Shown: piece after piece, positions 64 to 63,999 of the stretch
How positions within the stretch are numbered: the stretch's first letter is position 1
How the letters are laid out: the number at the start of each line of letters is the position of its first letter
Virus record (IMG/VR): IMGVR_UViG_3300034050_000143
DNA: 64,000 nucleotides
Source: an uncultured virus (IMG/VR IMGVR_UViG_3300034050_000143)
Taxonomy: Duplodnaviria; Heunggongvirae; Uroviricota; Caudoviricetes; Crassvirales
Strand: one strand, 5' to 3'
Translations under genes and position numbers: made by a program
The notes under the pieces: model-generated
What the model was told of the DNA's origin: nothing
Database searches by the model: none
Seen by the model: only the letters and a program-made list of their open reading frames with translations

Positions 64-375
64 TTACCAAAAGTTAGGTATTGTGAAACCTTTACGTCTT
101 ATTACTGCTAATTCGTTTTTATTAAACGCTTCTGAGTTCTTGACTTCGTTTTTATAGTTTGTGTATAGCACTCGTTCGTTTATACCGTTGAATATGTGAA
201 ATTCGTTTTCACATGACAAACTTGGTACTATGTATATGCACCTACTCTCTATTACTTCTTTAGCAACTATGTTTTGTATTGTACTTTTAGGTATCTTTAA
301 CTCTTTAGAAGCTTGATCCAAACTATCATCTGGATTCTGCATAAAATACTTATTAACCAATTGAACTCTAGTCAT
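64..375 (-). CDS. Hypothetical protein, possible N-terminal HTH
   Basis: 103-aa ORF; SLDQASKELKIPKSTIQNIV resembles a helix-turn-helix. Confidence 0.5.
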   Translation of the reverse strand: MTRVQLVNKYFMQNPDDSLDQASKELKIPKSTIQNIVAKEVIESRCIYIVPSLSCENEFHIFNGINERVLYTNYKNEVKNSEAFNKNELAVIRRKGFTIPNFW

Positions 376-737
376 TATAATAGTAGTTTAATGTTTATTA
401 TTTTTCTGTATACTTTATTAACTCTTTCTGAATTAACGCCTCTAGAAGTATAGAATTTCATTATTCTATTTATACGCTGTAAAGGAGACTGTTTCTTTTT
501 AACTATGCTCATTATTTTTTCTGTGTTTTTGTTTACATTTATAACTACAATATAGATCTTTAGTAAAACCTGTGTTTATAATCTTATTACAGCAATGGCA
601 TAATGTCGCTCCGTTACCATTATTAAACTTATGTATTGGTTTCATTTTTGACTTATTTTAATTAAGTAATACCAAAAGTCAATTGCGTATTTTCTTAGTA
701 TTTCGTAACTTATTATTATTAATAAATATTCCATATC

Positions 738-959
738 TTATTCCTTTTTAAATTGTTCAAACCATTTTTTCATTGCTTTAGAAAAAGGTAAATCTCCATC
801 TCTTAATTGCCAACCATCAAGAAAAGCAGTTTTTAAATCTTCCTCACTATAGATTCTTTCAGCTTGCCATTTAGCACCTAACTCTATACCTCTTATCTTA
901 GCTCCACTTGGAGAAGGATAAATAGATTTAATAAATTCTTCAAGTGTTTCTTGTTTCAT
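738..959 (-). CDS. Hypothetical protein (KQETLEE...GAKWQ...YSEED module)
   Basis: 73-aa ORF, clearly paralogous to the C-terminus of 1130-1903. Confidence 0.7.
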   Translation of the reverse strand: MKQETLEEFIKSIYPSPSGAKIRGIELGAKWQAERIYSEEDLKTAFLDGWQLRDGDLPFSKAMKKWFEQFKKE

Positions 960-976
960 CTTATTTATCTTTTTAA

Positions 977-1126
977 TTATTCATTATATGGATGCCAATA
1001 TCTTTTACCTGTAATAAAATATCTAATAGTTCCTACTATTATTCCTAAAGCTAAAAAACCTAAAAAAGCACAAGCCATAGTTCCAAATATTGCAATAGTA
1101 GGAGATTGTTCAAAAATACTTTCCAT
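977..1126 (-). CDS. Small membrane protein (49 aa)
   Basis: Read by hand: MESIFEQSPTIAIFGTMACAFLGFLALGIIVGTIRYFITGKRYWHPYNE; one hydrophobic helix; fills the gap in the leftward operon. Confidence 0.6.
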   Translation of the reverse strand: MESIFEQSPTIAIFGTMACAFLGFLALGIIVGTIRYFITGKRYWHPYNE

Positions 1127-1129
1127 ATC

Positions 1130-1903
1130 TTATTTCTTTTTAAATTGTTCTATTAATTTATCTGCGAGGTCTTCCCATAACAAATTTGATTTATCCATTT
1201 TGATTTCTCTGTAATATAGCCTTGCAAATAATTTAAAATCTTCCTCACTATAACTTCTTTCTTGTTGCCATTTAGCACCATTCATAAAAGCATCAATTGG
1301 CACATCTTGTGTAAGTGGTTCGCCTTCGTACAATTCTTTATAATTGTAAATTGCAGCTTCTTCAAGTGTTTCTTGTTTAGGTTCCACTAACTTATTAGCA
1401 GTTTCTCTCACTTTTTGTTTTACTAATTCAGGTGTTTCAGATAATATTCTATCTTTAGTTGATTGTTTGAGTTCTTCTTTTGGAATGATGATTTTATAAT
1501 TAAAATCAATGTAAGTTGTTCCTGCAACTTCCCCTAAACTTACCTTTTCTTTTACAATCTCAACACTTTCACAACTTGGATTCTTAACAAACCATTCTAA
1601 GAACTCATCGTCAATAGCTTGTACACCATCTTTGATAAGGTCTTGGTCTGTTGTTAAAATGATTTTTTTATAATGATTGTAGTTCATAAACTTTTGAAAT
1701 TTAAAAACTTCATTACTATTATCTATACACCATTCATCTTTTTCAATTTCTTCTGAATTAGTGATGTAGATGTTTGCACTAACAGTATTTCCAAAAAATG
1801 TATAGCTTTTTGGTATCTCTACTAATAATAACCCTTTTCCATTTTTTACTAACCTACTTGGCTTGTCTATTGGCAATACGTGTATGTTTTTACTTACTTT
1901 CAT
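1130..1903 (-). CDS. Hypothetical mosaic protein (KNIHVL start, C-terminal KQETLEE module)
   Basis: Long ORF; ATG at 1903 overlaps the end of the upstream gene. Confidence 0.75.
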   Translation of the reverse strand: MKVSKNIHVLPIDKPSRLVKNGKGLLLVEIPKSYTFFGNTVSANIYITNSEEIEKDEWCIDNSNEVFKFQKFMNYNHYKKIILTTDQDLIKDGVQAIDDEFLEWFVKNPSCESVEIVKEKVSLGEVAGTTYIDFNYKIIIPKEELKQSTKDRILSETPELVKQKVRETANKLVEPKQETLEEAAIYNYKELYEGEPLTQDVPIDAFMNGAKWQQERSYSEEDFKLFARLYYREIKMDKSNLLWEDLADKLIEQFKKK

Positions 1904-2174: not shown

Positions 2175-2851
2175 AATTCTAATATATTTCCGTTACTACT
2201 TAGTTTACCAAATCTTCTATCAGTTACTACTGAACCATTACTGAATATAGTATCGTAAGCAGATAGTTTTAAAGTACCAGCATTTATAGTTTCATCGTTA
2301 TTATGGATATGACCAAATAACATTAACTTAGGTTTTATCCTTTCAAGTATATGTCTTTTAAGAGCTCTACAACCACAATTTTCTAATTTATGGTCTATAT
2401 TTTCAGAAACATCTAATATACCTTTAGGCGGCCCGTGCGTAACAATAATGTCGCAAGGTTCGTGTATAGCATTGCGCCAGAATCGATCTAGTTTATTGCG
2501 ATCTTTCATGAATGCCCATTGACCAAACTGGGGCGTATGGGGTGACCCAAATATTTTAATGCCGTCAATATCTATATAGTCATTCTCTAAGTAATGTATG
2601 TTGTACCCAGAAAAATCTATTTTTTTAACTAAACCTTTTTCAATAGAGGTATCATGATTACCTGCTACATAAATCTTATGCTCAATAGGTAATGATTTAT
2701 ACCAATGAATAAAATTCCTAACTTCAGGTTCGTTGTTATAAGGGTCACGAGGATTACTACAATCACCAGAATGTATAACTAAATCTATGTCTTTAGGTAT
2801 AGTTAGTAAGTCATGATACCCGTGAGTATCTGATATGTGCCATATTTTCAT
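2171..2851 (-). CDS. Calcineurin-like metallophosphoesterase
   Basis: Motifs DTH, GD, GNHD, THGPP, GHIH in canonical order. Confidence 0.92.
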   Translation of the reverse strand: MKIWHISDTHGYHDLLTIPKDIDLVIHSGDCSNPRDPYNNEPEVRNFIHWYKSLPIEHKIYVAGNHDTSIEKGLVKKIDFSGYNIHYLENDYIDIDGIKIFGSPHTPQFGQWAFMKDRNKLDRFWRNAIHEPCDIIVTHGPPKGILDVSENIDHKLENCGCRALKRHILERIKPKLMLFGHIHNNDETINAGTLKLSAYDTIFSNGSVVTDRRFGKLSSNGNILEL

Positions 2852-3026: not shown

Positions 3027-4257
3027 TTATTCTTCTTTAAATGTTTCTAAATATTTTTCTACATCTACAGATAAATAAGGTACACCTTTCTCATCTGCTT
3101 TAACCTCTCCTATTGGTAATAAACTTTCTATTTTATCTTTAGTAAAAGTATCTAATACTTCTTTCATAAATATTAACTTTGTCATAATACGTTGTCTTTT
3201 TCTATTAACTCTAATATATAACTCCAAATATCTCTGTCAAAAATATCTTTTTCTCGCATCTCAACTCTTTTATCTGCATCCATTTTCCAATAAGTATCAG
3301 GATTGTTAGCTACTTTAACTGCGCCTTGTAGTTTAGACCACACTTTTAAAAATGCTGCTTCTTTTATTTTATCTGTTGACATAGTTTTTTTATTAGTTTA
3401 AAAAGTTTATTATTATATTCTGGATTGTTTAACAACTGTTCTTCTTTAGCTTTTAATTGTTCTTCAACAATTTTTAAAGGCCAATGAATTTTTAAGTTAT
3501 GACCAGTAATAGAATTGCCAAAGTTAATGCATATATATTCTGGATGTCTATCATGAGCACCTTCTATTATACCTATTTTTCCTAGTGTTTTTTTGTAAAT
3601 AGTATCCCATACAATAAATTTGTCACCATGAAACTCTACAGAAGTAAATTCTTTACCAACTAGACCCATAACCATATTTGTTTTCAGGATTTTTTAAACA
3701 CTTTTTTAATAGTTTTTTAGTGTGTTTTAAATTCCAGATATAATTATCGTCTATTAACTCACTACCAAAGAAGAAACCGCAACGCGTTGGTAACAAGTGT
3801 GAGTTCTTTTCTGGATTTTTTAATACTTTTTTACATAAGTTGTAAAGTATTAGTATTTTTTCCAATGGAAAATCTACGTCTTGACATTCATCTACACCAT
3901 TTTGTAGGTTGTCAACCATCCAAGCGTGTATAGCATTCGCTTTACGCCAATAACCGAACTCTTTTTCTTCTCCGTTTCTGTATAAATACATGTCTAATCC
4001 CATAATTATTTTTTTTAAGTTATTACTTTTATAAATTTACCTTGTTGGTCGTATAAAACAGTTAAATCGTACTCTTTGTCTAAATCATCTAATAATTTAG
4101 CAACGTTCAAGTACATAGATCCCATGTTGAACTCATTAACTCCGTGTCTAAAACCTTTTGATACAGCATAGTCAAATACAAAGTTACCGTCTATTGTATT
4201 ACTGTTCCTCATTAATATATATCTATCTTTCATATAGTTAAGGTTAAAAAGACCCAC
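3027..4257 (-). CDS. Cluster of five short hypothetical phage genes (3027-3185, 3182-3382, 3364-3675, 3653-4003, 4015-4257)
   Basis: Tightly packed/overlapping co-directional ORFs; 3653-4003 has the common phage MGLDMY...WRKANAIHAW signature. Confidence 0.65.
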
Positions 4258-4276: not shown

Positions 4277-4290
4277 AAAAATTATTAAAA

Positions 4291-5700
4291 TTAAACTTTA
4301 TAACCTTCAGCTACAACTGTAACACCTTCTTCGCTGTAACTAGTAACTTTATCACTCCAAGATACTTCAACTTGCTTACCACCAGTTTTAACGCATAGGT
4401 TTTTAAGCTCTTCGCTGAATTCCATAAGAGATATGGCATTGACCTTGTAAGGTAGAGTATCGTAACCAACTCTGTCTTGACCATCGTTTATAACTAGTAT
4501 TTCAGGCTTTTCTACTGATAAATCTACGTTTAGATTACCTAAATGACCATTATCAATATTTTTCGCAATAGATGTAACCATAGCACCTATGTCTGTAGTA
4601 CCGCCATTAGGATTATTAGAAAACCATGTCCAGAAATTCATTACATCGTCTCTGTTTTTAAGATGATGGAATTTTAGTTTACTTGGATCGCACACAAAGT
4701 AACTGAAGAATACTTCGGCTTCCTCTCGCATAACATAACGCAACCTGTCTATGAGTATAGCATTCACCCATATCTGCTTTTGGTCTTCGTCCATACTACC
4801 AGAGAAATCAAGCAATATAATTATTTTTTGTTTTTGTTCTTTACGGTCAACAGGTACATTAACAGTTAAATCTTTAGTTAAGAACTTAGTACGAAAGTTT
4901 GGAAACATTTTTTGATACAACTCGATTTGACTAAACTGAGCGTAATCACGCATAATCTTTTTAGCATACTGATCAGAGTTTGAAACTATTTTTTCAGATG
5001 TTTCTTTTTCAACTTTGAACTCATCACCAAGACTGCCTACAATAGATATTTTATTAAGAATATCCATCTTTCTGTTTTTACTCAGTTCATTAAAGTTTAA
5101 CTGTTCGTTTAAGTCAGGATCAGCGTATACTGCTCTGTCAAAGCTTAATGTAGAATCGTAATCTATATCATCTTCTGTTTTTTGACTTGGATCAGCATAC
5201 TGTTTGTCATTACTAATTTTTCTGTATATAGCTATAGCCTGTTCCAATGGAGTATTACCTGGAATAAACTGCTCGAATATACTATCAAACAGCGTTTTCT
5301 TATTGTCGTAATCTTCTCTAGCGCCATCTGACATAGAATCGTAATCAGCGAACATTTCGCTTACATACTCACGATCATCAACCATTTTTAGATAACATAC
5401 TCTAGCCAACTCTTTGATTGTATCTTGTGACTTATCTAGCCACACATTAGCTTTAGTTTTAATATCTGATTTAGTAGGAGTTAAATAGGTTACAGGATCT
5501 TTAACGAAGAGTTTTGAATTATCTTCAATAATTTCACCACCACCCCAGGAGTAATTAGTCCATACACTCGGAGACCAAGTATATGAACTGTATTTACTCT
5601 GTTTTTTAACACCACTACCATAACCATAACCACTGTAATTGTCGTACTCAGAAACGTAATCGTCCTCGTCACCCCAATAGGAATTTTTAAATCTACTCAT
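4291..5700 (-). CDS. VWA (von Willebrand A) domain protein
   Basis: MIDAS motif LLDFSGS, GGTT and INDG; adjacent to a MoxR ATPase. Confidence 0.85.
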   Translation of the reverse strand: MSRFKNSYWGDEDDYVSEYDNYSGYGYGSGVKKQSKYSSYTWSPSVWTNYSWGGGEIIEDNSKLFVKDPVTYLTPTKSDIKTKANVWLDKSQDTIKELARVCYLKMVDDREYVSEMFADYDSMSDGAREDYDNKKTLFDSIFEQFIPGNTPLEQAIAIYRKISNDKQYADPSQKTEDDIDYDSTLSFDRAVYADPDLNEQLNFNELSKNRKMDILNKISIVGSLGDEFKVEKETSEKIVSNSDQYAKKIMRDYAQFSQIELYQKMFPNFRTKFLTKDLTVNVPVDRKEQKQKIIILLDFSGSMDEDQKQIWVNAILIDRLRYVMREEAEVFFSYFVCDPSKLKFHHLKNRDDVMNFWTWFSNNPNGGTTDIGAMVTSIAKNIDNGHLGNLNVDLSVEKPEILVINDGQDRVGYDTLPYKVNAISLMEFSEELKNLCVKTGGKQVEVSWSDKVTSYSEEGVTVVAEGYKV

Positions 5701-7112: not shown

Positions 7113-7151
7113 TTCACAGATATTATCTGACTCGTTTAATATTAAGTCCGT
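7113..7151 (-). promoter_or_regulatory. Early promoter-like motif copy 1
   Basis: ACGGAnTT-N16-GATAATAT-N4-GAA, identical spacing in 7 copies. Confidence 0.8.
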
Positions 7152-7586
7152 ACGGTCATAAATATCATCTAACATGTGTAAACTAATAACTAGTTCTTGC
7201 TCGAACTTTGTTAGTGTATCAAAACCAAATTCACCGTATACTTCCATTGCTATTTGATCTAGTTTAGCCATTGCACTCATATAAACTTTTTTTAATTAAT
7301 ATTCTATTAGCACCCCTAACAACAGCGATTAAAATCGTGTACTATTAGTAGGGTCACGTAGTTTTACATTGCATTACAATAACCAATTAAGACAGAGCTT
7401 AAAGGTAATAACTACTTGCTGAGAACTCATTCGTATCTTGGTAAATGCAACACCTACCTATTTTTAACGTTGCTTGTTTCACCTTTCTCAAGGGGATAAT
7501 ACGTCTACCATTACTGATAGTATCTTTATGTAGATAAGACTATTTGCTTATTTTATACTACAAAGGTATTCAATGTTTAACCTTAG

Positions 7587-7713
7587 TAGTCAGGGCAGGA
7601 TTCGAACCTGCAATTGTGGATTTCCAAGAAAGGACTCGAACGGGTTTTTTTCATTCCACACCCGCGATAACTCTATCCTTAACTTTTTGCGTCTACCATT
7701 CCGCCACCTGACT
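7587..7713 (-). ncRNA. tRNA-like RNA with ~75-nt structured insert replacing the anticodon arm
   Basis: Acceptor AGTCAGG/CCTGACT, D arm GGCGGAATGGTAGACGC, T arm GCAGG-TTCGAAT-CCTGC. Confidence 0.7.
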
Positions 7714-7847
7714 CACCAGTAGCTATTAAGCTACCCTATCATAAGCCTTTTCCATTAAAGGATTACTATGCATGTAAACATTACCTATTTTAAGCATCCA
7801 ATCATGGAATCTTAATTGTCTGTCAAATCTGTCTTCGTTCGCCATGA

Positions 7848-9420
7848 TTAACTAATTTTTAATAAATTAATAAGTTCTCTCAACTGAGTGTGTATAGCAA
7901 CTAAACTTGATTGCGCTTCGTCAGTTTTGTCTTGTTCAAATGAATCGTCTACAACAGCGATTATACCTGATTTTTCAAGCATCTTTTTTTCTAGATCGCT
8001 CCAGAATTGTTTACCTTTAGCAGACTCTTCCCAGTCAAATGCTTCTGCTAATATAGCGTCTTCATCTACTACAAAAAGAGCAGCACCCATCGCTCCTCTT
8101 TGTTCTACTAATTCTGCGAAGAAATCATTTAAATGTTTCTTTGGTATTCTACTACATTTAGTAGCTTCTCTTACTTCTTTTGAATTCTTTGAAATTTCTT
8201 TTAGTTGTGCCATTTTAAATTACTTTAATTGTTAATGATGAAAATCCTTGCTCTGTTGGAACGCTTAAGTGGTTCCATAGTCTTGTATTACTAAACTTCT
8301 TACCTCTTGCGAAAGTAGATTTCTGACGAGTGGATGCTAATATCCATTCCTTACTATTTAAACCACTACATGGTTTCTCGTTTACGTTGGCAATCTTATG
8401 CTGGCGTATTTTATCTTTTCTGTACTGCTTACAATACTCGTGTGCTAATGTTGCTTCTGGTGACATATTATTTCCTTTTATTAAGTTGATTTATTTCTGA
8501 TGCTATTAACCATAGTGGTATTGCTATAATAATATTTGCAAGTACTTCCATAATCTTAATTATTTTCAATGGTTAAAATATTTAAATCTAATTTCGCTGT
8601 AGTCATATAATGACAGTTGTCATAGTCGTAGTTATCTTCTATGTAATTCTCTAGAAAATCTTCATGACTAAAGAATATATTATCTGAAATCTCTTCTATC
8701 GTTACCTTACCTCTTGAGTAATCTAATACTGTTATATACATAATCTAGCGTCTTATAGCCCAAGCGGCTGATTTACCTGCTTCTCGCAATTCATACTTAA
8801 ATCTAACTAGTATTAATCTAATAATACTTGAAAACCTTACTTTGTTTTTCATTTTATACTGTTTTTATAGATTGGATTTTCTCTTCTTACTTTTCTTTGA
8901 TCTGCTTTGAATCGCTTTAAAATAGCGTTGCACTCATCAAGCGTTGGATTATTAAATAAAAACCGCATGTAGCGTCTATTCATTACTCTTTCAATCGCTA
9001 TTTTAGGAACATCTACTTTTGATTTACTTGAACTCATCATATACTGTTTTAATTAATTGCTCTAACATCTCGTGTCTATCCCACTCATTACTCCAATTAC
9101 ACTCTATATAAATGTACTCAGACATTTCTCTGACCACCTGGTCTCTGCTTCCACCGCATTTGATGTAAGCAGAAAAACCATCGATGGTATCTTGGTTAAA
9201 GATATAACTCATATTACCAGCCTAGTACTAAGTCAGAAGATCTAATATAAGTAAGACCTTTGTGATTAAACCAAGAATATAAACCTTCTTGGTCATCTTC
9301 TGCATTGTAGATGAAGGCAAAACGCTTAGGTAAGCTGCCAATTTGAAATGCAGTGTATTTAACTTTGTTTAAGTAGATAGTTGTTTCTCTACGCTTGAAA
9401 CTTGGAAGTGATGTAATCAT
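7848..9420 (-). CDS. Cluster of short hypothetical early genes (7848-8213, 8215-8466, 8556-8741, 8849-9040, 9024-9212, 9214-9420)
   Basis: Co-directional packed ORFs downstream of promoter copy 2; no recognisable motifs. Confidence 0.6.
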
Positions 9421-9457
9421 GGTAAAATGGTATTAAAGGGTTAAATATTAAATTATT

Positions 9458-9496
9458 TTCAAGGATATTATCTGACTTAAATATTATTAAGTCCGT
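9458..9496 (-). promoter_or_regulatory. Early promoter-like motif copy 2
   Basis: Same 39-bp consensus. Confidence 0.8.
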
Positions 9497-9502
9497 ACGG
9501 TT

Positions 9503-9748
9503 TTAAACTTCGTAATCTATAAAAGTAGAAGTGTAATATTCTTCGTCATCTTCATACTCGTCATTATTCTCCGGGTATAACTCCATCAACTCATCGTAGA
9601 AAGGGTCATTAAAAGCATCGTAAGAATGAGTTAATATTATTAAGTTAACTGGTACTAATTCTCCATCTTCATCATTCCAGTAACCTGGTTCTATGGAGTA
9701 GTCTATAATTCCTGTAATCTTTGAAATCTTGCTAAGTAAATCTTGCAT
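9503..9748 (-). CDS. Small, very acidic protein (possible DNA mimic)
   Basis: 81 aa, Asp/Glu-rich (NDEYEDDEEYY), own promoter. Confidence 0.6.
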   Translation of the reverse strand: MQDLLSKISKITGIIDYSIEPGYWNDEDGELVPVNLIILTHSYDAFNDPFYDELMELYPENNDEYEDDEEYYTSTFIDYEV

Positions 9749-9850
9749 GGTTTAAGGTGTTAAATTGTTTATAAGAATAAAAAGTATTGGGAGTTTAAAA
9801 CTCTGTCTCTATCAGTCTCTCTGTCACTTCTAGCAGTATTAATTATTAAT

Positions 9851-9889
9851 TTCACGGATATTATCTGTAGTAAAATTAAAAAAGTCCGT
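9851..9889 (-). promoter_or_regulatory. Early promoter-like motif copy 3
   Basis: Same 39-bp consensus; GTGTATAGCA adjacent. Confidence 0.8.
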
Positions 9890-9957
9890 GCAGTGTATAG
9901 CACTTTAACTCGCAGTAAACAGAAATGGCACACCAAGCAACCAATTATTAAAAAGTG

Positions 9958-10003
9958 TGACATTAGGGTATTAATTAAGAAAGAGTAAGGGGCTATTGTC
10001 ACA
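9958..10003. repeat. 45/46-bp element copy A (TGACATTAGGGTA...AAGAAAGAGTAA..GGCTATTGTCACA)
   Basis: Direct repeat of 12481-12525 with imperfect terminal inverted arms. Confidence 0.85.
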
Positions 10004-10033
10004 GTTTTACAGTGTTAAAGGATAAAAAAATAT

Positions 10034-10061
10034 AAAAAAAAAGGCCACCCGAAGGTGACCT
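10034..10061 (-). terminator. Intrinsic terminator
   Basis: GGTCACC-TTCG-GGTGGCC hairpin then long T tract on minus strand. Confidence 0.85.
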
Positions 10062-10072
10062 ATTAATAATTA

Positions 10073-10378
10073 TTATACTAAACTTGGTAACGCTCTAACA
10101 AAAGCGGGTAGATTGTTAGTATTAGTATAACTTCCGTACTTTTCGAAGCATGGCATTAAGTCAAATTTCGCTTTTAAAGCGTTATATACTACATCATGGT
10201 TGTAAGTACATAACTCTGACTTGTTATTGGTAAAACTAATGATAGTATTACTACCAATTAATGACTTGCGAATAACGAAGCGTTTAGTCGTTATACTGTT
10301 TGTAGTAACTGTTGTTACTGTTGAAGTTGCAGGAGCGATTGTAGTGGCTACTACTGCAGTGGCTTTTGACTTTGACAT
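10073..10378 (-). CDS. Triplicated early protein, copy 1 (Thr/Ala-rich N-terminal extension)
   Basis: ITTKRFVIRKSLIG...KYGSYTNTNNLP shared with 11247-11480 and 11832-12062. Confidence 0.9.
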   Translation of the reverse strand: MSKSKATAVVATTIAPATSTVTTVTTNSITTKRFVIRKSLIGSNTIISFTNNKSELCTYNHDVVYNALKAKFDLMPCFEKYGSYTNTNNLPAFVRALPSLV

Positions 10379-10418
10379 GGTAAAATAATTTAAAAGGTTA
10401 TGAGGATTATTATTAATC

Positions 10419-10457
10419 TTCGAATATATTATCTGACCATATTAATTGTAAGTCCGT
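10419..10457 (-). promoter_or_regulatory. Early promoter-like motif copy 4
   Basis: Same 39-bp consensus. Confidence 0.8.
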
Positions 10458-10524
10458 GTGGTGTATAGCAGAAGTCACTCGTAATAAATACAATAGAATT
10501 ACTTGAAGTATGGACGAAAGTCGG

Positions 10525-10560
10525 CTCTGCCTGCCAATTCCACAATTAAGTAGAGTAAAA
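10525..10560. repeat. 36-bp intergenic repeat, copy A
   Basis: 31/36 identical to 11179-11214. Confidence 0.8.
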
Positions 10561-10596
10561 GGCCACCGTAGTGACCTTATTTAGTGGTTATTTTAG

Positions 10597-11060
10597 TTAA
10601 ATATCATAATACTTATCAATTATTGCTCCTAACCACTCCATAGTCTCATTAGATGCTCTAAAGTCTACTAAACTGTTGTCAGAATTAGATATTACTGCAT
10701 CAAAGGATACTGTTATTACTCTCACTAGGACATCATCTTCATAGATGAAGGTATTAGTACCATCAGTGAATTCTGTGTATTCTGTACCTGATTCTTTCAT
10801 TACTTTTTTAAGTAGTTTCATGTGTTTTTATTTAAAGGTTATTAATTAAATTCTTTGATAAAGTCAATCTCTTTTACATAGAATGTATGACTTACTCTTT
10901 GTTGGTCAACTACTTCAACTTGTTCTGAAAGATGGTTGTGGTATAACTCTTCAGGGTCAACATAGTACCAAGAGTTATTGATGGAAACCATAGTTGGAAA
11001 GTCATCATTAGGAATTGCTTTGTAAAGTTCTTTAGTGTTTTTTAATTTAACTTGTGTCAT
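10597..11060 (-). CDS. Two short acidic hypothetical genes (10597-10821, 10842-11060)
   Basis: ORFs between promoter copy 5 and a terminator hairpin at ~10557-10578. Confidence 0.65.
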
Positions 11061-11088
11061 GGTAATTAAGTATTAGATTATTATTAAA

Positions 11089-11127
11089 TTCATAGATATT
11101 ATCTCACTAAAAATCTTGTAAGTCCGT
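11089..11127 (-). promoter_or_regulatory. Early promoter-like motif copy 5
   Basis: Same 39-bp consensus. Confidence 0.8.
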
Positions 11128-11178
11128 GTAGTGTATAGCACTATTCACTATAATGAGATCGTTAGTGATTGAACACAC

Positions 11179-11214
11179 CTCTGCCTGTCCATTCCACCAA
11201 TAGGTAGAGTAAAA
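11179..11214. repeat. 36-bp intergenic repeat, copy B
   Basis: 31/36 identical to 10525-10560; abuts terminator hairpin CCCTC/GAGGG. Confidence 0.8.
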
Positions 11215-11246
11215 AACCCTCCTAAGAGGGCTTTAGTTAACTATTA

Positions 11247-11480
11247 TTATACTAACTCTTTAAGTGATCTAACAAATACTGGTAGATTATTAGTGTTAGT
11301 GTAACTACCATACTTATTAAAACATGGCATACTTTCAAACTTATCTTTGAGTTGATTATAGACTTTGTCATGGTCATAAGTCATTAACTCATTCTTGTTG
11401 TTAGTAAAACTAATTACTGTGTTAGTTCCAATTAGACTTCTTCTGATTACAAATCTTTTTGTAGTGATTGTGTTTGACAT
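11247..11480 (-). CDS. Triplicated early protein, copy 2
   Basis: 62/74 aa identical to copy 3 by hand alignment. Confidence 0.9.
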   Translation of the reverse strand: MSNTITTKRFVIRRSLIGTNTVISFTNNKNELMTYDHDKVYNQLKDKFESMPCFNKYGSYTNTNNLPVFVRSLKELV

Positions 11481-11518
11481 GGTAATATATATTAAGTTAA
11501 TGAAGATCATTATTAATC

Positions 11519-11557
11519 TTCAAATATATTATCTGACTATAAAACTTGTAAGTCCGT
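11519..11557 (-). promoter_or_regulatory. Early promoter-like motif copy 6
   Basis: Same 39-bp consensus. Confidence 0.8.
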
Positions 11558-11831
11558 GTATAGCAGATAGTTACTACAATGTAATACGAAAGTATGACGT
11601 AGGACGGAGTCTACTCTTCCGACTCTATTTCAAAGTCAGGCCTAAAAAGGATGCCTTTCGACATCCCTTATTTAATTATCGTATCAAAGATCTTACTACA
11701 AAGTACATTGCTATTGAACATCCGAAGATGACCTGTGGCTTTGCACAACTAAAGAAATACTTTACATGCTTCATGTTATATATATTAGATTAATAAATTA
11801 AGCAGTTTAACGACTTGCTTAGGTCGATGCA

Positions 11832-12062: not shown

Positions 12063-12116
12063 AACTGTGGTTGAATTTATGGTTTAATATATAATTAATT
12101 TTATATATAATTTAAA

Positions 12117-54930: not shown

Positions 54931-54969
54931 AAGAAAAGGGGATCACAATTAAGTGTATCCCCTTTCTTT
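54931..54969. terminator. Bidirectional terminator between convergent blocks
   Basis: AAGAAAAGGGGATCAC-AATTAA-GTGTATCCCCTTTCTT hairpin. Confidence 0.85.
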
Positions 54970-54994
54970 ATTTAGTGTGTATAGCACTTATAAG

Positions 54995-58446: not shown

Positions 58447-60159
58447 TTAGTCCCAAGGCATTTTATCATCACTAGTGTCTAATGGTTCATGAGGTATAAA
58501 ACAACCAGAACGTGGTTCCCATTTAAAATGCGCTTCTGCTCCGTTCTCACCGAGGTTTTGAAACTTTACTTTAAGTACTTTACATTTAACTGTTTTATCT
58601 TCATAATTCCTATGAACTAATAAACCATGATACGAAGCATCATACCATTCACCACCACCTTTTATATTATACATAGTAGGTTCTTCTATTTTACCTTCTC
58701 TATCTTTATACATTTTAGTTGGGTGAGCAACTACGATAACTAATACATCATACTTTTTAGCAAAGACTTCTATCTGTTGTAGATATTCTAACGTATAAAC
58801 ATTTACATCTCCAGAAGCATCTGTTGCTCTAACCTTATTAAATGGATCTATAACAAGACATTTAATACCTTTACGTTTAACCAACTCAGCACCTTTTCTA
58901 AGAACAGACTCTAACGTATAACGTTCCATGTCTATAAAGAAATAACTACTATTAACATGCGTTGCTATTTGATTCCACTTTTCTCCGTGTATATCTTCTG
59001 CTGAAGGCATATCGCCCCAGGTTTTACGCATTAGTTTATGAGCATGTAAATAAGTAGGTTGATTCTCTGGTGAAGCAAATGCTGTTTTCCAACCATACTT
59101 ACCATTGTAACCTACAACCATTTGGTCAACAAAATCAGACTTACCACTGCTAGGTATACCAGTAACGGTAATAAACTGACCCGTATAAGTAGAAAATATG
59201 CTATCAAAGTTATCGAGTCCGACTTGAAACCCAGGTTTGAAACCATTTCTAACAAAATCCGTGACTTCATCTTCAATGTCACGGAATGTAGTAACATTTT
59301 CCAGCGGAACAGGTTTAGATCTTGATATTCTTTGTGATAATGCTTCTTTTCCATATTTAATTAAGTATTCGTTTGCGTCTTTACAATCATCGAAAGTTGC
59401 AATATAACAAGTTTCTGATCCTAGTCGTCTAACTAGTTCTGTCTGTAAGGCTTGCCCAGCAGCGTCTGAATCAACTGCAATAATGATTTTTGATTTGTCT
59501 TCAAAGTAATCAATACAATTATCTAAGTACTCGAGATTGTTTGTGCCTAAGGTTGCACCATTAGGAACAGATATTGCATTAGTAATCCCTGCTTCGTGTA
59601 ATGCTAATACGTCCATTTCGCCTTCAACAATAACACAATATTCAAAACCTACAATGCTGTTAATATTATAGAATACTTTTTCAGCTCCTTTGAATAATTT
59701 AAAGTGTTTATGCCCGTCTCTGTATTTTACATTGATAAGTTGATCGCCAATAAAATAATTAAAGTGTATAGCATTTTCTGTTTTACCAGTTTGAGGCATA
59801 AACTCTGGCCCTTCTGTAACTTGTAAATCTGTTAATGTTTGTTTTGATATTCCACGATCCGCAAACCAGTCAGCCACTTTTGAACTAGGTGGTAATACCG
59901 TAATTGCTGTTGGCCTTGTATATACTTTTTCACTTGCACCTTTACGTTGATAGGTATGTAATTGAAAAGTCTTGTTGCAGTTATGGCAAGTACCTATGCC
60001 CCGCTCCCAATCATAAGATGCACACTTTGCTTTTTCATTCTTAGGTTTTCTATCAGAAGAACACATAGGACAAACACCTTGCGTTTTACCTTCTTCTAGA
60101 CCATATTGATTGAAAGTATCAATCAAGAATCCATTGATCTCTGTATTATTTACTTGCAT
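58447..60159 (-). CDS. Primase-helicase (T7 gp4/Twinkle-like)
   Basis: CPMC..CHNC zinc finger, TOPRIM VEGEMD/DSD..G/KDANE, Walker A GIPSSGKS, VAHP. Confidence 0.95.
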   Translation of the reverse strand: MQVNNTEINGFLIDTFNQYGLEEGKTQGVCPMCSSDRKPKNEKAKCASYDWERGIGTCHNCNKTFQLHTYQRKGASEKVYTRPTAITVLPPSSKVADWFADRGISKQTLTDLQVTEGPEFMPQTGKTENAIHFNYFIGDQLINVKYRDGHKHFKLFKGAEKVFYNINSIVGFEYCVIVEGEMDVLALHEAGITNAISVPNGATLGTNNLEYLDNCIDYFEDKSKIIIAVDSDAAGQALQTELVRRLGSETCYIATFDDCKDANEYLIKYGKEALSQRISRSKPVPLENVTTFRDIEDEVTDFVRNGFKPGFQVGLDNFDSIFSTYTGQFITVTGIPSSGKSDFVDQMVVGYNGKYGWKTAFASPENQPTYLHAHKLMRKTWGDMPSAEDIHGEKWNQIATHVNSSYFFIDMERYTLESVLRKGAELVKRKGIKCLVIDPFNKVRATDASGDVNVYTLEYLQQIEVFAKKYDVLVIVVAHPTKMYKDREGKIEEPTMYNIKGGGEWYDASYHGLLVHRNYEDKTVKCKVLKVKFQNLGENGAEAHFKWEPRSGCFIPHEPLDTSDDKMPWD

Positions 60160-61592: not shown

Positions 61593-62147
61593 TTATAGTT
61601 TAGATAAAATTGTTATTTGCTCTTTACTTAAATCGTATTTGCCTTTAATAGTTTCCAAAGAACCACCTGTCTCTACAAACGTCTTAGCTTTTTCAAGACC
61701 AGCAGCATCTAATTTCGCTTTAACAGGTTCAGTTTTACCATGTGTATTTGAAGCATCTGCATCAGCAGTGTCATCAATAAGTAATAAATTACCAAGAGCA
61801 TATTTTTTACCATAACTAGAAGCAGAACCAAATGCCTGTGGCGTCTGCATACCTTTTTGAACTAAGTCTACACCAACAATAGCTTTAACTTCTATTGAAT
61901 TTTCACTAAAAGCATCGTGTATAGCAGCTTTGCTAATAATAACTGGTAAATCGTGAGAATAAATATAATCCTCATTTATTGTAAAATACACACCATATTT
62001 TTCGTTAAAAGGTTTTAAGCCTTCTAATATATCCTCAGCGGATCTAAAATTGTATTTACCAAACGAATTGTATCTACTTTTATTTGACTTAAACTCAATT
62101 TGAATTCTAGACAACTTGATAGACAAAGGCAACTTTTGATTTTCCAT
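61593..62147 (-). CDS. erf: ERF-family ssDNA annealing protein
   Basis: NSFGKYNFRSAEDI...Q.FGSASSYGKKYAL...DDTAD.D. Confidence 0.9.
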   Translation of the reverse strand: MENQKLPLSIKLSRIQIEFKSNKSRYNSFGKYNFRSAEDILEGLKPFNEKYGVYFTINEDYIYSHDLPVIISKAAIHDAFSENSIEVKAIVGVDLVQKGMQTPQAFGSASSYGKKYALGNLLLIDDTADADASNTHGKTEPVKAKLDAAGLEKAKTFVETGGSLETIKGKYDLSKEQITILSKL

Positions 62148-62312
62148 ATATTTAATTTAATTAATTTAAAAATTCTCTAATAAAATGTACAACCATACCC
62201 ACCATTAATACTGCAACACCAATCATTATTATTCCAATAAAAATGGGTGCTATAGTATGCATAACAAAATCTTCCATATAATTTAATTTAATTGTTTAAC
62301 TTTTATATCTAT

Positions 62313-62340
62313 ATAATTACGTATTTTTCAATCTTTTTAC
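62313..62340 (-). promoter_or_regulatory. Middle/late promoter-like motif
   Basis: GTAAA-N15-GTAATT directly after the sigma gene, upstream of erf operon. Confidence 0.6.
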
Positions 62341-62347
62341 ATTTAAC

Positions 62348-63130
62348 TTACATAAAGTCAAGCACTTGCGATGATTCTACATTCACTACTAATTTACTTA
62401 TTGCTAATTTTTTTAACTCAGAAATTCTAACATAAGCACTAGCACCTTTAAAGTCTAATATATCTGCTATTGATATAGCTGAATGTCTATCACAGTCTAA
62501 ACCATAACTTAATCTTAATACTTCTGATTCATTATGAGTTAAATGTTTTTTAAATATACTTAACAAATAAGAATTTAATAAATCTATATTATACTCTTTA
62601 GATTTATCTTCGAAAATAGCACCGGCATAACTAGTTTCTCCATCAAAGAAATTGTCATCAGAACTATCAAAATCCTCATCTAAACTTTTAAATATACTAT
62701 TAAAGAACATTTCAACCATTTTTTCGTTGTCTGGATTCTTACGTATCTCATTTAATTTATGTTCAGGAATACGTATTGCTCCTCTATTAATGTCTATTGC
62801 GCGTCTAATTGAACCCTTTATTCGTTTTGACAGAAACGATTTCAATGTATTTTCTTGATTGTCAGATTCATTTATTCTGTCCCAATCTATGTTGTCTATA
62901 GCTAGAATTAAGGCTATGCTACCTTCTTGTAACATGTCTGTTATATCCATTATTCCTGAAGCTTGGTCTGCGGTTGAAAACTTTCTAGCTATATTTTCAA
63001 CTAAAGGCATAAACACAATAATTAATTCTTTTTTACTGTATTCATCATAAGATTTATTTTCTATGTTAGATAAACATTCTTTTAAATCTTGTTTGTACCT
63101 AAGATAATTATCTATATTATACTTTTTCAT
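62348..63130 (-). CDS. Sigma70-family RNA polymerase sigma factor
   Basis: Region 2 LVENIARKF...DMLQEG.IAL..AID...IRRAI...IRIP; region 4 LT..E.EVLRL.YGL...IADIL. Confidence 0.9.
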   Translation of the reverse strand: MKKYNIDNYLRYKQDLKECLSNIENKSYDEYSKKELIIVFMPLVENIARKFSTADQASGIMDITDMLQEGSIALILAIDNIDWDRINESDNQENTLKSFLSKRIKGSIRRAIDINRGAIRIPEHKLNEIRKNPDNEKMVEMFFNSIFKSLDEDFDSSDDNFFDGETSYAGAIFEDKSKEYNIDLLNSYLLSIFKKHLTHNESEVLRLSYGLDCDRHSAISIADILDFKGASAYVRISELKKLAISKLVVNVESSQVLDFM

Positions 63131-63604
63131 TTGATTTTTCTTTATCTATTTTATCCATGAAATCTTTTATATCTCCAATAGTATATATTCCTTGTGCTGA
63201 ATTATCTAATGGAAATACTCTAGTTTCATCTGGTAATCTAGATGCTAAAGGATTTAACCATCGTCCGTAATGTGACCTAAACCATATCCTTTCAAAGAAA
63301 GAATGATCTATATAATCTAATAACTCTCCTTCTTCATCGCATATCTTATCGATGTCTATCATACGCTGAGGTATTCCAAATGTTGTACTCATAGTCCTTT
63401 TTCTTTTTTATATATTAATAGTAATTTTTCTATTGATAATTTACCCATATCTTCAGTTGTTAAACTATCTAAATATTCTCCAAATCCAATAACAAATTCA
63501 TTAATAATTTTTAAAACTTTACCTGTGTGGTTATATTCTAATGGACAATCATTATAGCAATCCCAATACTGAGTATGTGGTCTAACTTGTTCTTCTAATG
63601 TCAT
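63117..63604 (-). CDS. Two short hypothetical genes (63117-63392, 63389-63604)
   Basis: Overlapping ORFs. Confidence 0.6.
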
Positions 63605-63999
63605 AATGTTTGATTTAAAAGTTCTTTTTCTTTTTTAAGTTCGTTACTCATGTTTCTGTAAACTGTTCTCGCAGAACAACCAAGATGTTTCGCTAGTTTC
63701 TCAACAGTGATTTTTTCACCATCATCATGAGTGTATAGCATAGCATCGTAAATCTCAGACTCTGATAATTTTTTACGACCAATAATACTTCCTACAATTT
63801 GTAGTTTCTGTTCTGCTGTTAACATGCAGAATTCTTTAAATATTATCTTACGTAACTTGTTTTTAGGCGGAGTTTCAAGATCTTGCATACTAACTTCATA
63901 TATCATAGTTTTCAATAGTTGATCAGATATTGTAAATGTAATAAAGTTATTTGACTTATCACATATAAATTTACATATATTTTCTAATTCATCTTGATT
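63601..63999 (-). CDS. HTH DNA-binding protein, 5'-truncated by window edge
   Basis: ITVEKLAKHLGCSARTVYR; frame stays open to the window end. Confidence 0.75.
   Translation of the reverse strand, partial: NQDELENICKFICDKSNNFITFTISDQLLKTMIYEVSMQDLETPPKNKLRKIIFKEFCMLTAEQKLQIVGSIIGRKKLSESEIYDAMLYTHDDGEKITVEKLAKHLGCSARTVYRNMSNELKKEKELLNQTL

What the first reader, a model, noticed from the sequence alone, without database searches (positions are those of the whole stretch)
161..63740. Fourteen exact, single-orientation copies of GTGTATAGCA confined to the leftward-transcribed arms
Seen on + at 161, 2462, 3926, 5797, 7890, 9893, 10461, 11131, 11556, 12190, 54977, 59764, 61917 and 63731 (plus a 1-mismatch copy at 4753). 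I found none, in either orientation, in the 42-kb structural block. Eight lie inside unrelated genes in two different reading frames (AIH six times, LYT twice), so this is a nucleic-acid-level signal. Spacing is mostly ~1.5-2.3 kb and tightens to ~0.5 kb toward the strand switch, where copies abut the early promoters. A rough chance expectation at ~30% GC is well under one copy per window. Inference: a polar site such as a Chi-like nuclease-protection site, a ratchet for DNA entry, a primase/helicase loading site, or an antitermination box (UGCUAUACAC in mRNA).
Basis: partly seen in the sequence, partly recalled or inferred. Interest (0 to 1): 0.85.

Follow-up and report, generated by a model that had tools for sequence, protein, structure and literature searches.

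The report
Strand-locked 10-mer sites in phage early arm
A phage of Flavobacteria-type hosts carries fourteen identical, evenly spaced, one-directional copies of a ten-base word in its early genes, most likely the target sites of a tiny nuclease-like phage protein, much like the unexplained strand-specific nicks of phages T5 and tf.

Summary
There are 14 exact GTGTATAGCA on + (sense TGCTATACAC on the leftward-gene strand), against 0.17 expected, and none in the 42-kb late block. A codon-shuffle null gives 0.35 against 9 coding copies, and all six Ala-Ile-His tripeptides of the arm are spelled by the motif. Many uncultivated relatives carry the word, at changing positions, always sense inside genes and more evenly spaced than chance. 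It has no conserved flanks and no fixed place relative to gene starts. It is at chance level in 201 genomes of a candidate host family, so the Chi reading fails. Upstream of early promoters, relatives carry it in either orientation, often as direct pairs about 12 bp apart. Among the window's ORFs, only 12968-13621 is present in all five motif-bearing whole genomes and none of seven motif-free ones; its relatives are basic 78-96-aa proteins with invariant D-x-D-H and R-G-N. My best reading is that this protein reads the word and probably nicks one strand, as in T5, tf and phiKMV-like phages. Nicking and binding are untested.

The parts
161..170 (-). motif copy (sense TGCTATACAC), in ORF 64-375, Leu-Tyr-Thr frame
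2462..2471 (-). motif copy in phosphoesterase-like ORF 2171-2887, Ala-Ile-His frame
3926..3935 (-). motif copy in ORF 3653-4003, Ala-Ile-His frame
4753..4762 (-). one-mismatch variant TGCTATACTC in the VWA-like ORF 4291-5700; the same variant word occurs in relatives L001, L002, L003 and L005
5797..5806 (-). motif copy in MoxR-type ATPase ORF 5719-6753, Ala-Ile-His frame
7890..7899 (-). motif copy in ORF 7848-8213, Ala-Ile-His frame
9893..9902 (-). motif copy 4 nt upstream of the promoter-like element 9888-9858
10461..10470 (-). motif copy 4 nt upstream of the promoter-like element 10456-10426
11131..11140 (-). motif copy 4 nt upstream of the promoter-like element 11126-11096
11556..11565 (-). 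motif copy whose last base overlaps the promoter-like element 11556-11526
12190..12199 (-). first motif copy of the arm, upstream of the first promoter-like element 12154-12124
54977..54986 (-). last motif copy, 8 nt after the stop of the last arm gene (54995-55213) and 14 nt before the hairpin that separates the convergent blocks
59764..59773 (-). motif copy in the primase-helicase gene 58447-60159, Ala-Ile-His frame; relatives carry it here or about 145 nt further upstream
61917..61926 (-). motif copy in the Erf-like gene 61593-62147, Ala-Ile-His frame
63731..63740 (-). motif copy in the HTH gene 63601-63915, Leu-Tyr-Thr frame
12968..13621 (+). candidate reader gene: 217-aa long form of a small basic protein family (phrog_6437). 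The conserved part is about residues 134-217 (13367-13621), with D-x-D-H and N-R-G-N.
7120..12154 (-). span holding seven bipartite promoter-like elements CGGANTT-N16-GATAATAT (7150-7120, 9495-9465, 9888-9858, 10456-10426, 11126-11096, 11556-11526, 12154-12124)
   Evidence: 7 found, 0 expected
54931..54976 (.). A-run, GC-rich imperfect hairpin and T-run between the convergent leftward arm and the late block; coordinates are my own count from the printed sequence
   Evidence: read from the sequence
62348..63130 (-). sigma-70-family factor gene (rival reader); present in motif-bearing and motif-free relatives alike

Best explanation
TGCTATACAC (family consensus TGCTATACRY, usually followed by a purine) is a self-contained DNA recognition site. 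I propose that it is read by a small, basic, accessory phage protein encoded at the start of the late block. In the window this is 12968-13621; relatives encode 78-96-aa forms. The conserved core of that protein is predicted as a helical hairpin followed by strand-strand-helix, with invariant D-x-D-H and R-G-N, which resembles a minimal HNH (beta-beta-alpha-metal) nuclease. The most likely action is strand-specific nicking of progeny or virion DNA at these sites. That would make it a localized single-strand-interruption system of the kind described for T5, phiKMV-like phages and Pseudomonas phage tf. Shown here: the sites exist, are selected at the DNA level, are co-oriented with transcription wherever they lie in genes, are evenly spaced, and co-occur with that gene. 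Further inference: the cut or the asymmetric complex must lie on the non-template strand of DNA that is transcribed straight after entry. This would explain why orientation is fixed inside genes but free in the untranscribed spacers upstream of early promoters. It would also explain why a block transcribed the other way carries no sites on that strand.
For: (1) DNA-level selection. There are 14 copies against 0.17 expected. Nine coding copies compare with 0.35 under synonymous shuffling, and 6 of 6 Ala-Ile-His tripeptides of the arm are spelled T-GCT-ATA-CAC, with none in the late proteins.
(2) Self-contained word. In 105 non-redundant instances out of 247, no flank column exceeds 0.25 bits; the next base is a purine in 80 of 105.
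(3) Independence from genes. The quintiles of position within ORFs hold 14, 16, 15, 18 and 6 copies. Of the 105 instances, 69 lie in sense ORFs and 36 lie outside any sense ORF; only 1 of those 36 lies inside a long antisense ORF.
(4) Conservation with turnover. The 80 primase-anchored loci hold 147 sense and 29 antisense exact copies, and the primase gene carries the word at either about 250 or about 395 nt from its start.
(5) Even spacing. The coefficient of variation of gaps is 0.14 in the window's left arm (P = 0.0008); the combined P over 7 arm segments is 6e-6, and those genomes are related.
(6) Accessory, clade-specific system. 24 of 80 relatives, 5 of 5 fetched motif-free genomes and 5 of 5 named relatives have no copy, although they keep the sigma, primase, Erf and HTH genes.
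(7) Gene link. Among the window's ORFs, 12968-13621 is the only one with a match in all five motif-bearing whole genomes and none in the seven motif-free ones. In 75 loci sampled through an unrelated early protein, 23 have motif and gene and 38 have neither. Three have the motif without the gene, and all three are cut off upstream. Eleven have the gene with fewer than 2 copies. Of those 11, six carry a subfamily with a 9-residue insertion before D-Y-D-H. So 0 of 6 insertion forms have 2 or more copies, against 23 of 28 other forms. 38 of 66 loci with tandem pairs hold the gene within 6 kb.
(8) Nuclease-like core. D58, D60, H61, R73, G74 and N75 are invariant in 42 sequences, and one subfamily has D-I/L-H-H instead. 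The AlphaFold2 model has strand 57-60, strand 65-68 and helix 69-73, with pLDDT about 76 there. The nearest named Atlas clusters include HNH and HNH_3, at scores of 0.87, which is only a lead.
(9) Precedent. Phage tf has 14 nicks at a 9-bp asymmetric word found only in one strand, in a genome of two convergent transcription units, mostly in the left unit. The T5 nicking genes map to the late region. The function is unknown (passages of PMC3517423).
Against: No physical evidence of nicks or of binding exists for this phage. The only sequencing run I could lay was a metatranscriptome kept as short contigs, and it says nothing on DNA ends.

The protein has no Pfam hit at E up to 1 and no PDB sequence hit. 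Foldseek found nothing, and the best VIA-align Z was 3.1; a small HNH nicking enzyme appears only at Z 2.5, among noise. A profile comparison with a relative's annotated HNH endonuclease gave probability 0.1. The protein has no cysteines for the zinc sites of many HNH enzymes.

The gene family (4613 hits) is wider than the motif. Some phages have the gene and no copies in the DNA held. The gene lies next to the early region, so co-inheritance could be plain linkage, and the sampled genomes are related.

In many relatives the copies upstream of early promoters are antisense, and 55 of 93 such spacers hold direct pairs about 12 bp apart. That looks more like cooperative binding of a regulator than like nick sites, and it would put cuts on both strands, unlike tf. 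Nothing in a nick model by itself predicts even spacing or a total absence from the late block.
Confidence: 0.38

Rival explanations
1. The word is a non-catalytic binding site for a regulator of the early/middle arm, either the same small protein or another one. At early promoters it would act as an upstream operator. Inside the arm the asymmetric complexes would act as polar roadblocks, insulators or looping anchors that shut off or organise leftward transcription.
For: In the window the copies lie 4 nt or less from the promoter-like box, and the first one lies 35 nt away. In relatives the same spacers hold the word in either orientation. Of 100 distinct direct pairs, 54 have a 2-nt spacer, giving a 12-bp period. 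55 of 93 antisense spacers are tandem, against 1 of 52 sense spacers. The first copy lies upstream of the first promoter and the last lies after the last gene, so the copies bracket the arm. Even spacing would suit repeated anchors.
Against: The distance from the pair to the promoter box varies by 0 to about 9 nt in the listing (my reading), so there is no fixed geometry with RNA polymerase. Motif-free relatives have the same promoter type without the word, so it is not needed for promoter activity. An invariant D-x-D-H and R-G-N core looks more like an active site than a DNA-binding surface. A polar roadblock by a roughly 90-aa protein is conjecture.
Confidence: 0.25
2. The word is a single-element promoter, resembling an extended -10 (TGnTATAca), read by host RNA polymerase carrying the phage sigma factor (62348-63130). 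It would re-initiate middle transcription every 1-2 kb.
For: The phage encodes a genuine sigma-70-family protein. phmmer matches RpoD, SigA and FliA across regions 2 to 4, with a best E of 5.4e-6, and phrog_351 scores 4.8e-18. There is a precedent: the phiEco32 gp36 sigma reads a single 9-bp element tAATGTAtA, with starts 6-8 bp downstream (passages of PMC8948821). All genic copies are co-oriented with the genes. In the closest GenBank relative MW202828, a different arm-confined word lies 18-35 nt before an ATG in 9 of 14 copies.
Against: The sigma gene is equally conserved in motif-free relatives: 55-59% identity, against 55-69% in motif-bearing ones. Copies are spread uniformly along ORFs and show only a modest excess 50-200 nt upstream of the next start. 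The last copy faces only a terminator-like hairpin. Many promoter-proximal copies in relatives point away from any gene of the arm. A sigma with region 4 would be expected to use a second box, and none is conserved.
Confidence: 0.1
3. The word is a co-transcriptional signal read on the non-template strand or in the RNA (UGCUAUACAC). It would be an ops-, nut- or put-like element that reloads an antitermination or pausing factor along the roughly 21-kb arm.
For: Orientation is strictly sense inside transcribed DNA, position is independent of gene borders, and spacing is even.
Against: The first copy lies upstream of the first recognisable promoter. In relatives, 93 of 145 motif-bearing promoter-proximal spacers carry the word antisense, where it would not be read. 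None of the 60 window ORFs scanned in PHROGs, nor the 12 scanned in Pfam, matched a family described as NusG-, RfaH- or N-like; ORFs under 60 aa were mostly not scanned.
Confidence: 0.07
4. The word is a replication signal: a preferred start site for the T7-gp4-like primase-helicase, or an iteron-like site of an initiator. It would set Okazaki-size intervals.
For: Intervals of 1-2 kb resemble Okazaki fragment lengths (established knowledge). The word sits on one strand only, and a primase-helicase is encoded in the arm. Relatives have tandem, iteron-like pairs near the strand switch. The + strand word begins GTGT, which recalls one of the T7 primase sites (recalled, not tested).
Against: Any fork crossing the 42-kb late block would need the same signal on one of its strands, and there is none. 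The primase is conserved at 77-81% identity in motif-free relatives. Known primase sites are 3-5 nt long (established knowledge).
Confidence: 0.06
5. The word is a Chi-like site that tames a host RecBCD or AddAB nuclease.
For: It is short, asymmetric, in a single orientation and over-represented in the phage.
Against: The word occurs 0-9 times per genome in 201 genomes of the family of a Flavobacteriaceae MAG, no more than a control word, and 1-7 times in 5 Flavobacteriales MAGs. It is restricted to one third of the phage genome. It is tied to an accessory phage gene and not to a host. The true host is unknown, so the host sample may miss it.
Confidence: 0.02

Closest known systems
Localized single-strand interruptions (nick sites) of Pseudomonas phage tf, phiKMV-like phages and T5
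   Same: The site is a short, asymmetric, near-invariant word repeated about 14 times on one strand, placed regardless of gene borders and denser in the early half of a genome with convergent transcription units. The nicking functions of T5 map to late genes. Close relatives differ in site number. The function is unexplained. All of this is from passages of PMC3517423.
   Different: Nicks have not been shown here. In the window every site lies in the leftward arm, whereas tf also has a few sites in the other transcription unit. Relatives also carry antisense tandem pairs upstream of promoters. Spacing here is significantly even. The passages I read name no nickase protein for tf, while here a candidate gene family emerges.
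Single-element promoters of phage sigma factors (phiEco32 gp36 tAATGTAtA; T4 gp55 late promoter, recalled)
   Same: The element is 8-10 bp long, has no second box, is repeated in one orientation, and the phage encodes its own sigma factor.
   Different: The copies are not positioned relative to gene starts. The sigma gene is shared with motif-free relatives. Copies occur upstream of other promoters in either orientation.
Chi sites and other polar chromosome words (KOPS, recalled)
   Same: The word is short, oriented and over-represented.
   Different: The word is not enriched in candidate host genomes. It is confined to one arm of the phage.
HNH / beta-beta-alpha-metal nucleases (for the candidate reader protein)
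   Same: The protein has an invariant D-x-D-H (or D-x-H-H in one subfamily), followed 11-14 residues later by N-R-G-N. The predicted topology is strand-strand-helix. The protein is small, basic and phage-borne.
   Different: It has no Pfam, PDB-sequence or significant fold match. It has no cysteine zinc sites and only about 35 residues of core. Activity is untested.
Dispersed operators of global regulators (KorB OB sites of plasmid RK2; iterons), recalled
   Same: A dozen or so copies of one word are spread over tens of kb, some next to promoters and some far from any. Relatives have tandem copies at about helical-turn spacing.
   Different: Those sites are palindromic or clustered and lack orientation locking inside genes. 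No ParB-like or Rep-like gene was seen among the ORFs scanned.

Membership tests
Localized nick (sci) sites of T5 / phiKMV / tf type | A short asymmetric consensus present on one DNA strand only | tested here: met
   The window has 14 of 14 copies on one strand. Relatives depart from this: there are 147 sense and 29 antisense copies in 80 loci, with antisense copies mainly in promoter spacers and in the convergent block.
Localized nick (sci) sites of T5 / phiKMV / tf type | Physical nicks (3'-OH / 5'-P, ligase-repairable) at the sites in virion DNA | not testable with these tools
   No virion DNA or raw DNA reads were available. The one run laid was RNA contigs.
Localized nick (sci) sites of T5 / phiKMV / tf type | A phage-encoded nicking function, expressed late | tested here: inconclusive
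   A late-block gene co-occurs with the motif and has an HNH-like core. No family or fold match supports this.
Chi sites | Strong over-representation in the host chromosome | tested here: not met
   There are 0-9 copies per genome in 201 genomes of one Flavobacteriaceae-type family, like the control word. The true host is unknown.
Chi sites | Recognition by RecBCD or AddAB with attenuation of degradation | not testable with these tools
   This needs biochemistry or genetics.
Sigma-dependent single-element phage promoters | Placement upstream of genes, with RNA starts 6-9 bp downstream | tested here: inconclusive
   Position within ORFs is uniform (quintiles 14, 16, 15, 18, 6), with a modest excess 50-200 nt before starts. 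RNA 5' ends were not obtainable.
Sigma-dependent single-element phage promoters | The motif co-varies with its sigma factor | tested here: not met
   The sigma gene is present at similar identity in 5 motif-bearing and 5 motif-free genomes. The separation score is 0.06, against 0.01-0.11 for the other genes.
RfaH/ops-type or N/nut-type antitermination | The element lies in the transcribed leader or body in sense orientation only | tested here: not met
   The first copy is upstream of the first promoter-like element. 93 of 145 motif-bearing promoter-proximal spacers in relatives carry the word antisense.
RfaH/ops-type or N/nut-type antitermination | A cognate NusG-paralogue or N-like factor is encoded | tested here: inconclusive
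   None of the 60 ORFs scanned in PHROGs or the 12 scanned in Pfam matched such a family. Many small ORFs were not scanned.
HNH (beta-beta-alpha-metal) nucleases, for protein 12968-13621 | A catalytic His preceded by Asp or His at the end of strand 1, with a downstream Asn in the helix | tested here: met
   D58, D60, H61, R73, G74 and N75 are invariant, and N72 is at least 90% conserved, in 42 sequences. One subfamily has D-I/L-H-H. That these positions are catalytic is inferred.
HNH (beta-beta-alpha-metal) nucleases, for protein 12968-13621 | The beta-beta-alpha fold | tested here: inconclusive
   The model shows strand 57-60, strand 65-68 and helix 69-73, with mean pLDDT 69.8. Foldseek gave 0 hits, and the best VIA-align Z was 3.1, with an HNH nickase at Z 2.5.
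HNH (beta-beta-alpha-metal) nucleases, for protein 12968-13621 | A match to a curated HNH profile | tested here: not met
   No HNH family matched at E up to 1 in Pfam for 6 members. PHROGs gives only phrog_6437, of unknown function. Atlas neighbours named HNH and HNH_3 score 0.87, which is a lead only.

The most novel reading that the evidence does not exclude
A transcription-aware marking system. A roughly 90-residue minimal HNH-like protein, made late and possibly carried into the cell with the DNA, would place evenly spaced, strand-specific nicks or asymmetric complexes only on the non-template strand of the arm that is expressed first after entry. Paired sites of free orientation would sit in the untranscribed spacers before early promoters. 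The sites would then organise early expression, or prime recombination-dependent replication, of incoming DNA. The system would also give the long-unexplained localized nicks of T5, tf and phiKMV-like phages a candidate enzyme family with thousands of members and a testable rule for site orientation.
Probability: 0.25. Interest if true: 0.85.

Novelty: new variant of a known kind. Interest (0 to 1): 0.66.

Why it matters
Site-specific nicks in phage DNA have been known since T5, yet the passages I read still call their function unclear (PMC3517423). This case offers comparative leverage that isolates did not. It is a large family of uncultivated phages in which an oriented 10-mer appears and disappears together with one tiny gene. 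The word is strong enough to dictate amino acids in unrelated proteins, is spaced more evenly than chance, and follows a simple orientation rule: fixed in genes, free in spacers. If it is not, the motif is still one of the cleaner examples of a DNA-level signal overriding coding sequence in a phage.

Tried and rejected
RNA evidence. The only run found was one metatranscriptome kept as contigs, with a word share of 0.08. Laying it gave short contigs of relatives and no starts or ends.

Other words that looked like alternative motifs were artefacts. ACGTAAAGG is a conserved primase peptide. GGCAACGTCGGG in G212 is a tail-fibre protein repeat.

Its recognition helix is the same in motif-bearing and motif-free relatives.

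Sigma, primase, Erf, exonuclease, MazG and the resolvase. None separates the motif groups; separation scores are 0.01-0.07, and 0.11 for the thymidylate-synthase-like gene, which exists in two types.

The giant 2443-aa protein as a virion RNA polymerase. It has no Pfam or PHROG hit and only chance-level PDB sequence hits (E = 0.24). Its single D-x-D-x-D match (residue 281) shows no polymerase-like context, and it carries an HExxH motif instead.

The idea that antisense pairs replace intrinsic terminators. Terminator-like hairpins occur upstream of 21 of 52 sense spacers and 24 of 93 antisense spacers, a weak difference. The simple scan found 5 in the window's early region and 1 in that of G004.

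Resemblance of CTATACAC(A) to a DnaA box (recalled). I rejected it because the ninth base is not conserved, the TG prefix is invariant, and a host factor would not explain the link to an accessory phage gene.

Named relatives. MW202828, elemoA, phi38:1, phi18:3 and Gundel_1 have no copy, so published work on them cannot inform this motif. tblastn of the small protein against 50,697 phage records found nothing. A profile comparison with a relative's annotated HNH gene gave nothing.

Full report
**What the window is.** The window is most of the genome of a podovirus-type phage with about 30-34% G+C. A rightward late block (about 12.6-54.9 kb) encodes terminase, portal, virion proteins, GroEL/GroES and a 2443-aa protein. 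A leftward arm is split by the window ends (1-12.2 kb and 55-64 kb). The arm encodes small early genes, a primase-helicase, an Erf-like annealing protein, an exonuclease, a sigma-70-family factor, HTH proteins, a MazG-like protein, a thymidylate-synthase-like protein and a resolvase. Terminase and portal place it with Flavobacterium elemo phages and Cellulophaga, Tenacibaculum and Maribacter phages at 27-45% identity. One Caudoviricetes record, MW202828, is closest at 50-65%. IMG/VR holds hundreds of uncultivated relatives: 371 primase matches, of which 80 were kept. In whole relatives the leftward arm is one continuous block.

**The observation.** All 14 exact copies sit at the stated coordinates on +, with none on -, against 0.17 expected. 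The copy at 4753 is the only extra match at one mismatch. On the strand of the leftward genes the word reads TGCTATACAC.
- Six copies lie in the frame x-Ala-Ile-His.
- Two lie in the frame Leu-Tyr-Thr, plus a third in a doubtful ORF.
- Five lie in spacers of the early region.
- One lies 8 nt after the last stop codon of the arm, just before the hairpin that separates the convergent blocks.

Synonymous-codon shuffling of the arm genes gives a mean of 0.35 copies (largest 3 in 500) against 9 observed. All six Ala-Ile-His tripeptides of the arm proteins are spelled T-GCT-ATA-CAC, and the twice-larger late proteome has no such tripeptide. The word is therefore imposed on the proteins and does not follow from them.

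**Conservation.**
- In 80 primase-anchored loci there are 147 sense and 29 antisense exact copies. 34 loci have at least two exact copies, and 24 have no TGCTATACRY at all.
- The variants are TGCTATACAC (147), -CAT (56), -CGT (18) and -CGC (9).
- Five whole genomes show 7/1, 12/1, 5/10, 10/2 and 2/7 copies on their two strands, with the majority strand being the sense strand of the early/middle arm.
- Positions turn over. The primase gene carries the word about 395 nt from its start in some relatives and about 250 nt in others.
- In 105 non-redundant instances no flanking column carries more than 0.25 bits; the next base is a purine in 80 of 105.
- 69 instances lie in sense ORFs (35 in the Ala-Ile-His frame, 27 in the Leu-Tyr-Thr frame, 7 in the Cys-Tyr-Thr frame). 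They are spread uniformly along the ORFs (quintiles 14, 16, 15, 18, 6). Only 1 of the 36 others lies inside a long antisense ORF.
- Internal copies are more evenly spaced than random. The coefficient of variation is 0.14 in the window's left arm (P = 0.0008). Five consecutive gaps of 1022-1173 bp occur in G004. The combined P is 6e-6 over seven arm segments, which are not fully independent.

**Context near the strand switch.** The window has seven bipartite promoter-like elements CGGANTT-N16-GATAATAT, all leftward, against 0 expected. Five are preceded by the word, and each early unit ends in a hairpin with a T-run by eye. Relatives have the same promoter type, but the word upstream of it can be inverted. 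Of 100 distinct pairs, 54 have a 2-nt spacer (a 12-bp period), and most are followed by a GC-rich hairpin that begins in the ACAC end. Over all sources, 52 promoter spacers carry the word in sense (1 tandem) and 93 carry it in antisense (55 tandem). So orientation is fixed inside genes and free in spacers.

**Tests of named mechanisms.**
- *Chi.* In 201 genomes of the family of a Flavobacteriaceae MAG the word occurs 0-9 times per genome, like a control word. Five Flavobacteriales MAGs have 1-7 copies. The reading is not supported, with the caveat that the host is unknown.
- *Promoter for the phage sigma.* The sigma is genuine, and single-element sigma promoters exist in phiEco32 (passages of PMC8948821). 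However, the sigma gene is equally conserved in motif-free relatives, the copies ignore gene starts, and the last copy faces only a hairpin.
- *RNA or non-template-strand signal.* This does not fit the copies upstream of promoters or the antisense copies.
- *Primase or replication signal.* The late block has no copy on either strand, and the primase is shared with motif-free relatives.
- *HTH protein at 63601.* Its recognition helix is identical in both groups.

**Which gene goes with the word.** I compared the window's ORFs with five motif-bearing whole genomes (G002-G006), five motif-free ones (G212-G216; 0 copies) and two named relatives. Only ORF 12968-13621 is present in all of the first group and in none of the others. 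G005 and G006 are farther from the window than the motif-free genomes in terminase, portal and GroEL, so this is not simple overall kinship.

The homologues are 78-96-aa basic proteins. The window has a 217-aa form whose last 85 or so residues are the conserved part.

In 75 loci sampled through an unrelated early-protein family:

| | gene present | gene absent |
|---|---|---|
| 2 or more motif copies | 23 | 3 (all three cut off upstream of the early gene) |
| fewer than 2 copies | 11 | 38 |

Six of the 11 loci with the gene but few copies carry a subfamily with a 9-residue insertion before D-Y-D-H. So 0 of 6 insertion forms have two or more copies, against 23 of 28 other forms. 38 of 66 tandem-pair loci hold the gene within 6 kb.

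The family is phrog_6437 (unknown function) and has 4613 hits; every source name among the 120 hits listed is 'hypothetical protein'. It has no Pfam or PDB sequence match. D58, D60, H61, R73, G74 and N75 are invariant, and one subfamily has D-I/L-H-H. The AlphaFold2 model (42 sequences, mean pLDDT 69.8) gives two helices, then strand 57-60, strand 65-68 and helix 69-73. This is the order of elements of a beta-beta-alpha-metal (HNH) core. That comparison is recalled. Fold searches gave nothing significant, and the Atlas neighbours named HNH and HNH_3 score only 0.87.

**Reading.** The closest described phenomenon is the localized nicking of Pseudomonas phage tf. That phage has 14 nicks at a 9-bp asymmetric word found only in the top strand of a genome with two convergent transcription units, most of them in the left unit. 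phiKMV-like phages and T5 have similar nicks. The T5 nicking genes map to the late region, nicks are repaired early and reappear late, and the function is unknown (passages of PMC3517423).

I therefore propose that the word is the site of the small late-block protein, and that this protein probably nicks one strand. Breaks in the template strand block RNA polymerases, while breaks in the non-template strand are tolerated (established knowledge, not tested here). If the cut lies on the non-template strand, this explains why orientation is locked in DNA that must be transcribed from the incoming genome, why it is free in untranscribed spacers, and why the oppositely transcribed block lacks sites on that strand.

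The model does not by itself explain the even spacing, the complete absence from the late block, or the 12-bp tandem pairs. Those features favour the main rival, in which the same sites are non-catalytic binding sites that regulate or organise the early arm. I put 0.38 on the nick-site reading, 0.25 on the regulator reading, and less on the others.

**A parallel case.** The closest GenBank relative, MW202828, lacks both the word and the small gene. It has 14 copies of a 16-bp palindrome, GTGTCGTTAACGACAC, confined to its early/middle arm. Nine lie 18-35 nt before an ATG and five lie in coding-looking sequence. It has no cluster of the GATAATAT promoter type. Arm-confined words with about 14 copies may therefore be a recurrent feature of this phage group, with exchangeable readers.

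**Limits.** All relatives are metagenomic, related to each other and often fragmentary. The association tests are not phylogenetically corrected. Gene calls are simple ORF calls. No experiment or raw DNA read bears on nicking or binding. I saw only passages of the two papers cited, and no supplements.

Noticed in passing
window 7120-12154, - strand: Seven bipartite promoter-like elements CGGANTT-N16-GATAATAT (0 expected) each precede a small early gene. The GATAATATA box recurs across the whole phage family, including motif-free relatives. It is not the textbook Bacteroidota promoter (recalled), so which polymerase form reads it is open.
   Followed up: partly
It occurs in motif-bearing and motif-free phages alike.
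   Followed up: partly
MW202828.1 (L081 / W01), 43747-55156: The closest GenBank relative has 14 copies of the perfect 16-bp palindrome GTGTCGTTAACGACAC, confined to its early/middle arm. Nine lie 18-35 nt before start codons. It has no TGCTATACRY and no homologue of the small protein.
   Followed up: partly
window about 9950-10000 and 12478-12525: Two copies of a roughly 48-nt element, with the same strand sense, have inverted ends (TGTGACAATAG ... CTAATGTCACA). One lies before the late block and one lies inside the early region. Similar elements were seen in G002 and G005.
   Followed up: no
window about 11600-11640, - strand; also G004, G005 and L250: A conserved non-coding stretch (GAGTCGGAAGAGTAGACTCCGTCCTAC) lies in an early spacer. 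It has no Rfam match and could be a small RNA or a protein site.
   Followed up: no
window 12576-12647 (+) and 7587-7713 (-): Both ARAGORN and Rfam call a tRNA-Met just before the first late gene. Only Rfam calls a second, 127-nt tRNA-like match in a 560-bp ORF-free gap, 177 nt downstream of the motif copy at 7890.
   Followed up: no
window 47556-54887, +: A 2443-aa protein at the end of the virion block has no family, PHROG or significant PDB match. It carries an HExxH motif near residue 906. The counterpart in MW202828 is annotated over 741-12320 (about 3860 aa).
   Followed up: partly
window 12661-12963 and 12968-13621, +: The first two late-block ORFs share the same nine N-terminal residues (MAFQLRSQS), and several homologues of the small protein in relatives share them too. 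This may be a common targeting or processing signal.
   Followed up: no
window 22872-24416 and 28434-29042, +: The phage encodes GroEL-like and GroES-like chaperonins inside the late block. The GroEL is only about 40% identical to bacterial GroELs.
   Followed up: no
loci L001, L002, L012, L013, L016, L017, L021, L022 and L032, about 19-21 kb: Many relatives have one copy of the word in the convergent giant-protein gene, in that gene's own sense orientation. The window has none there.
   Followed up: no
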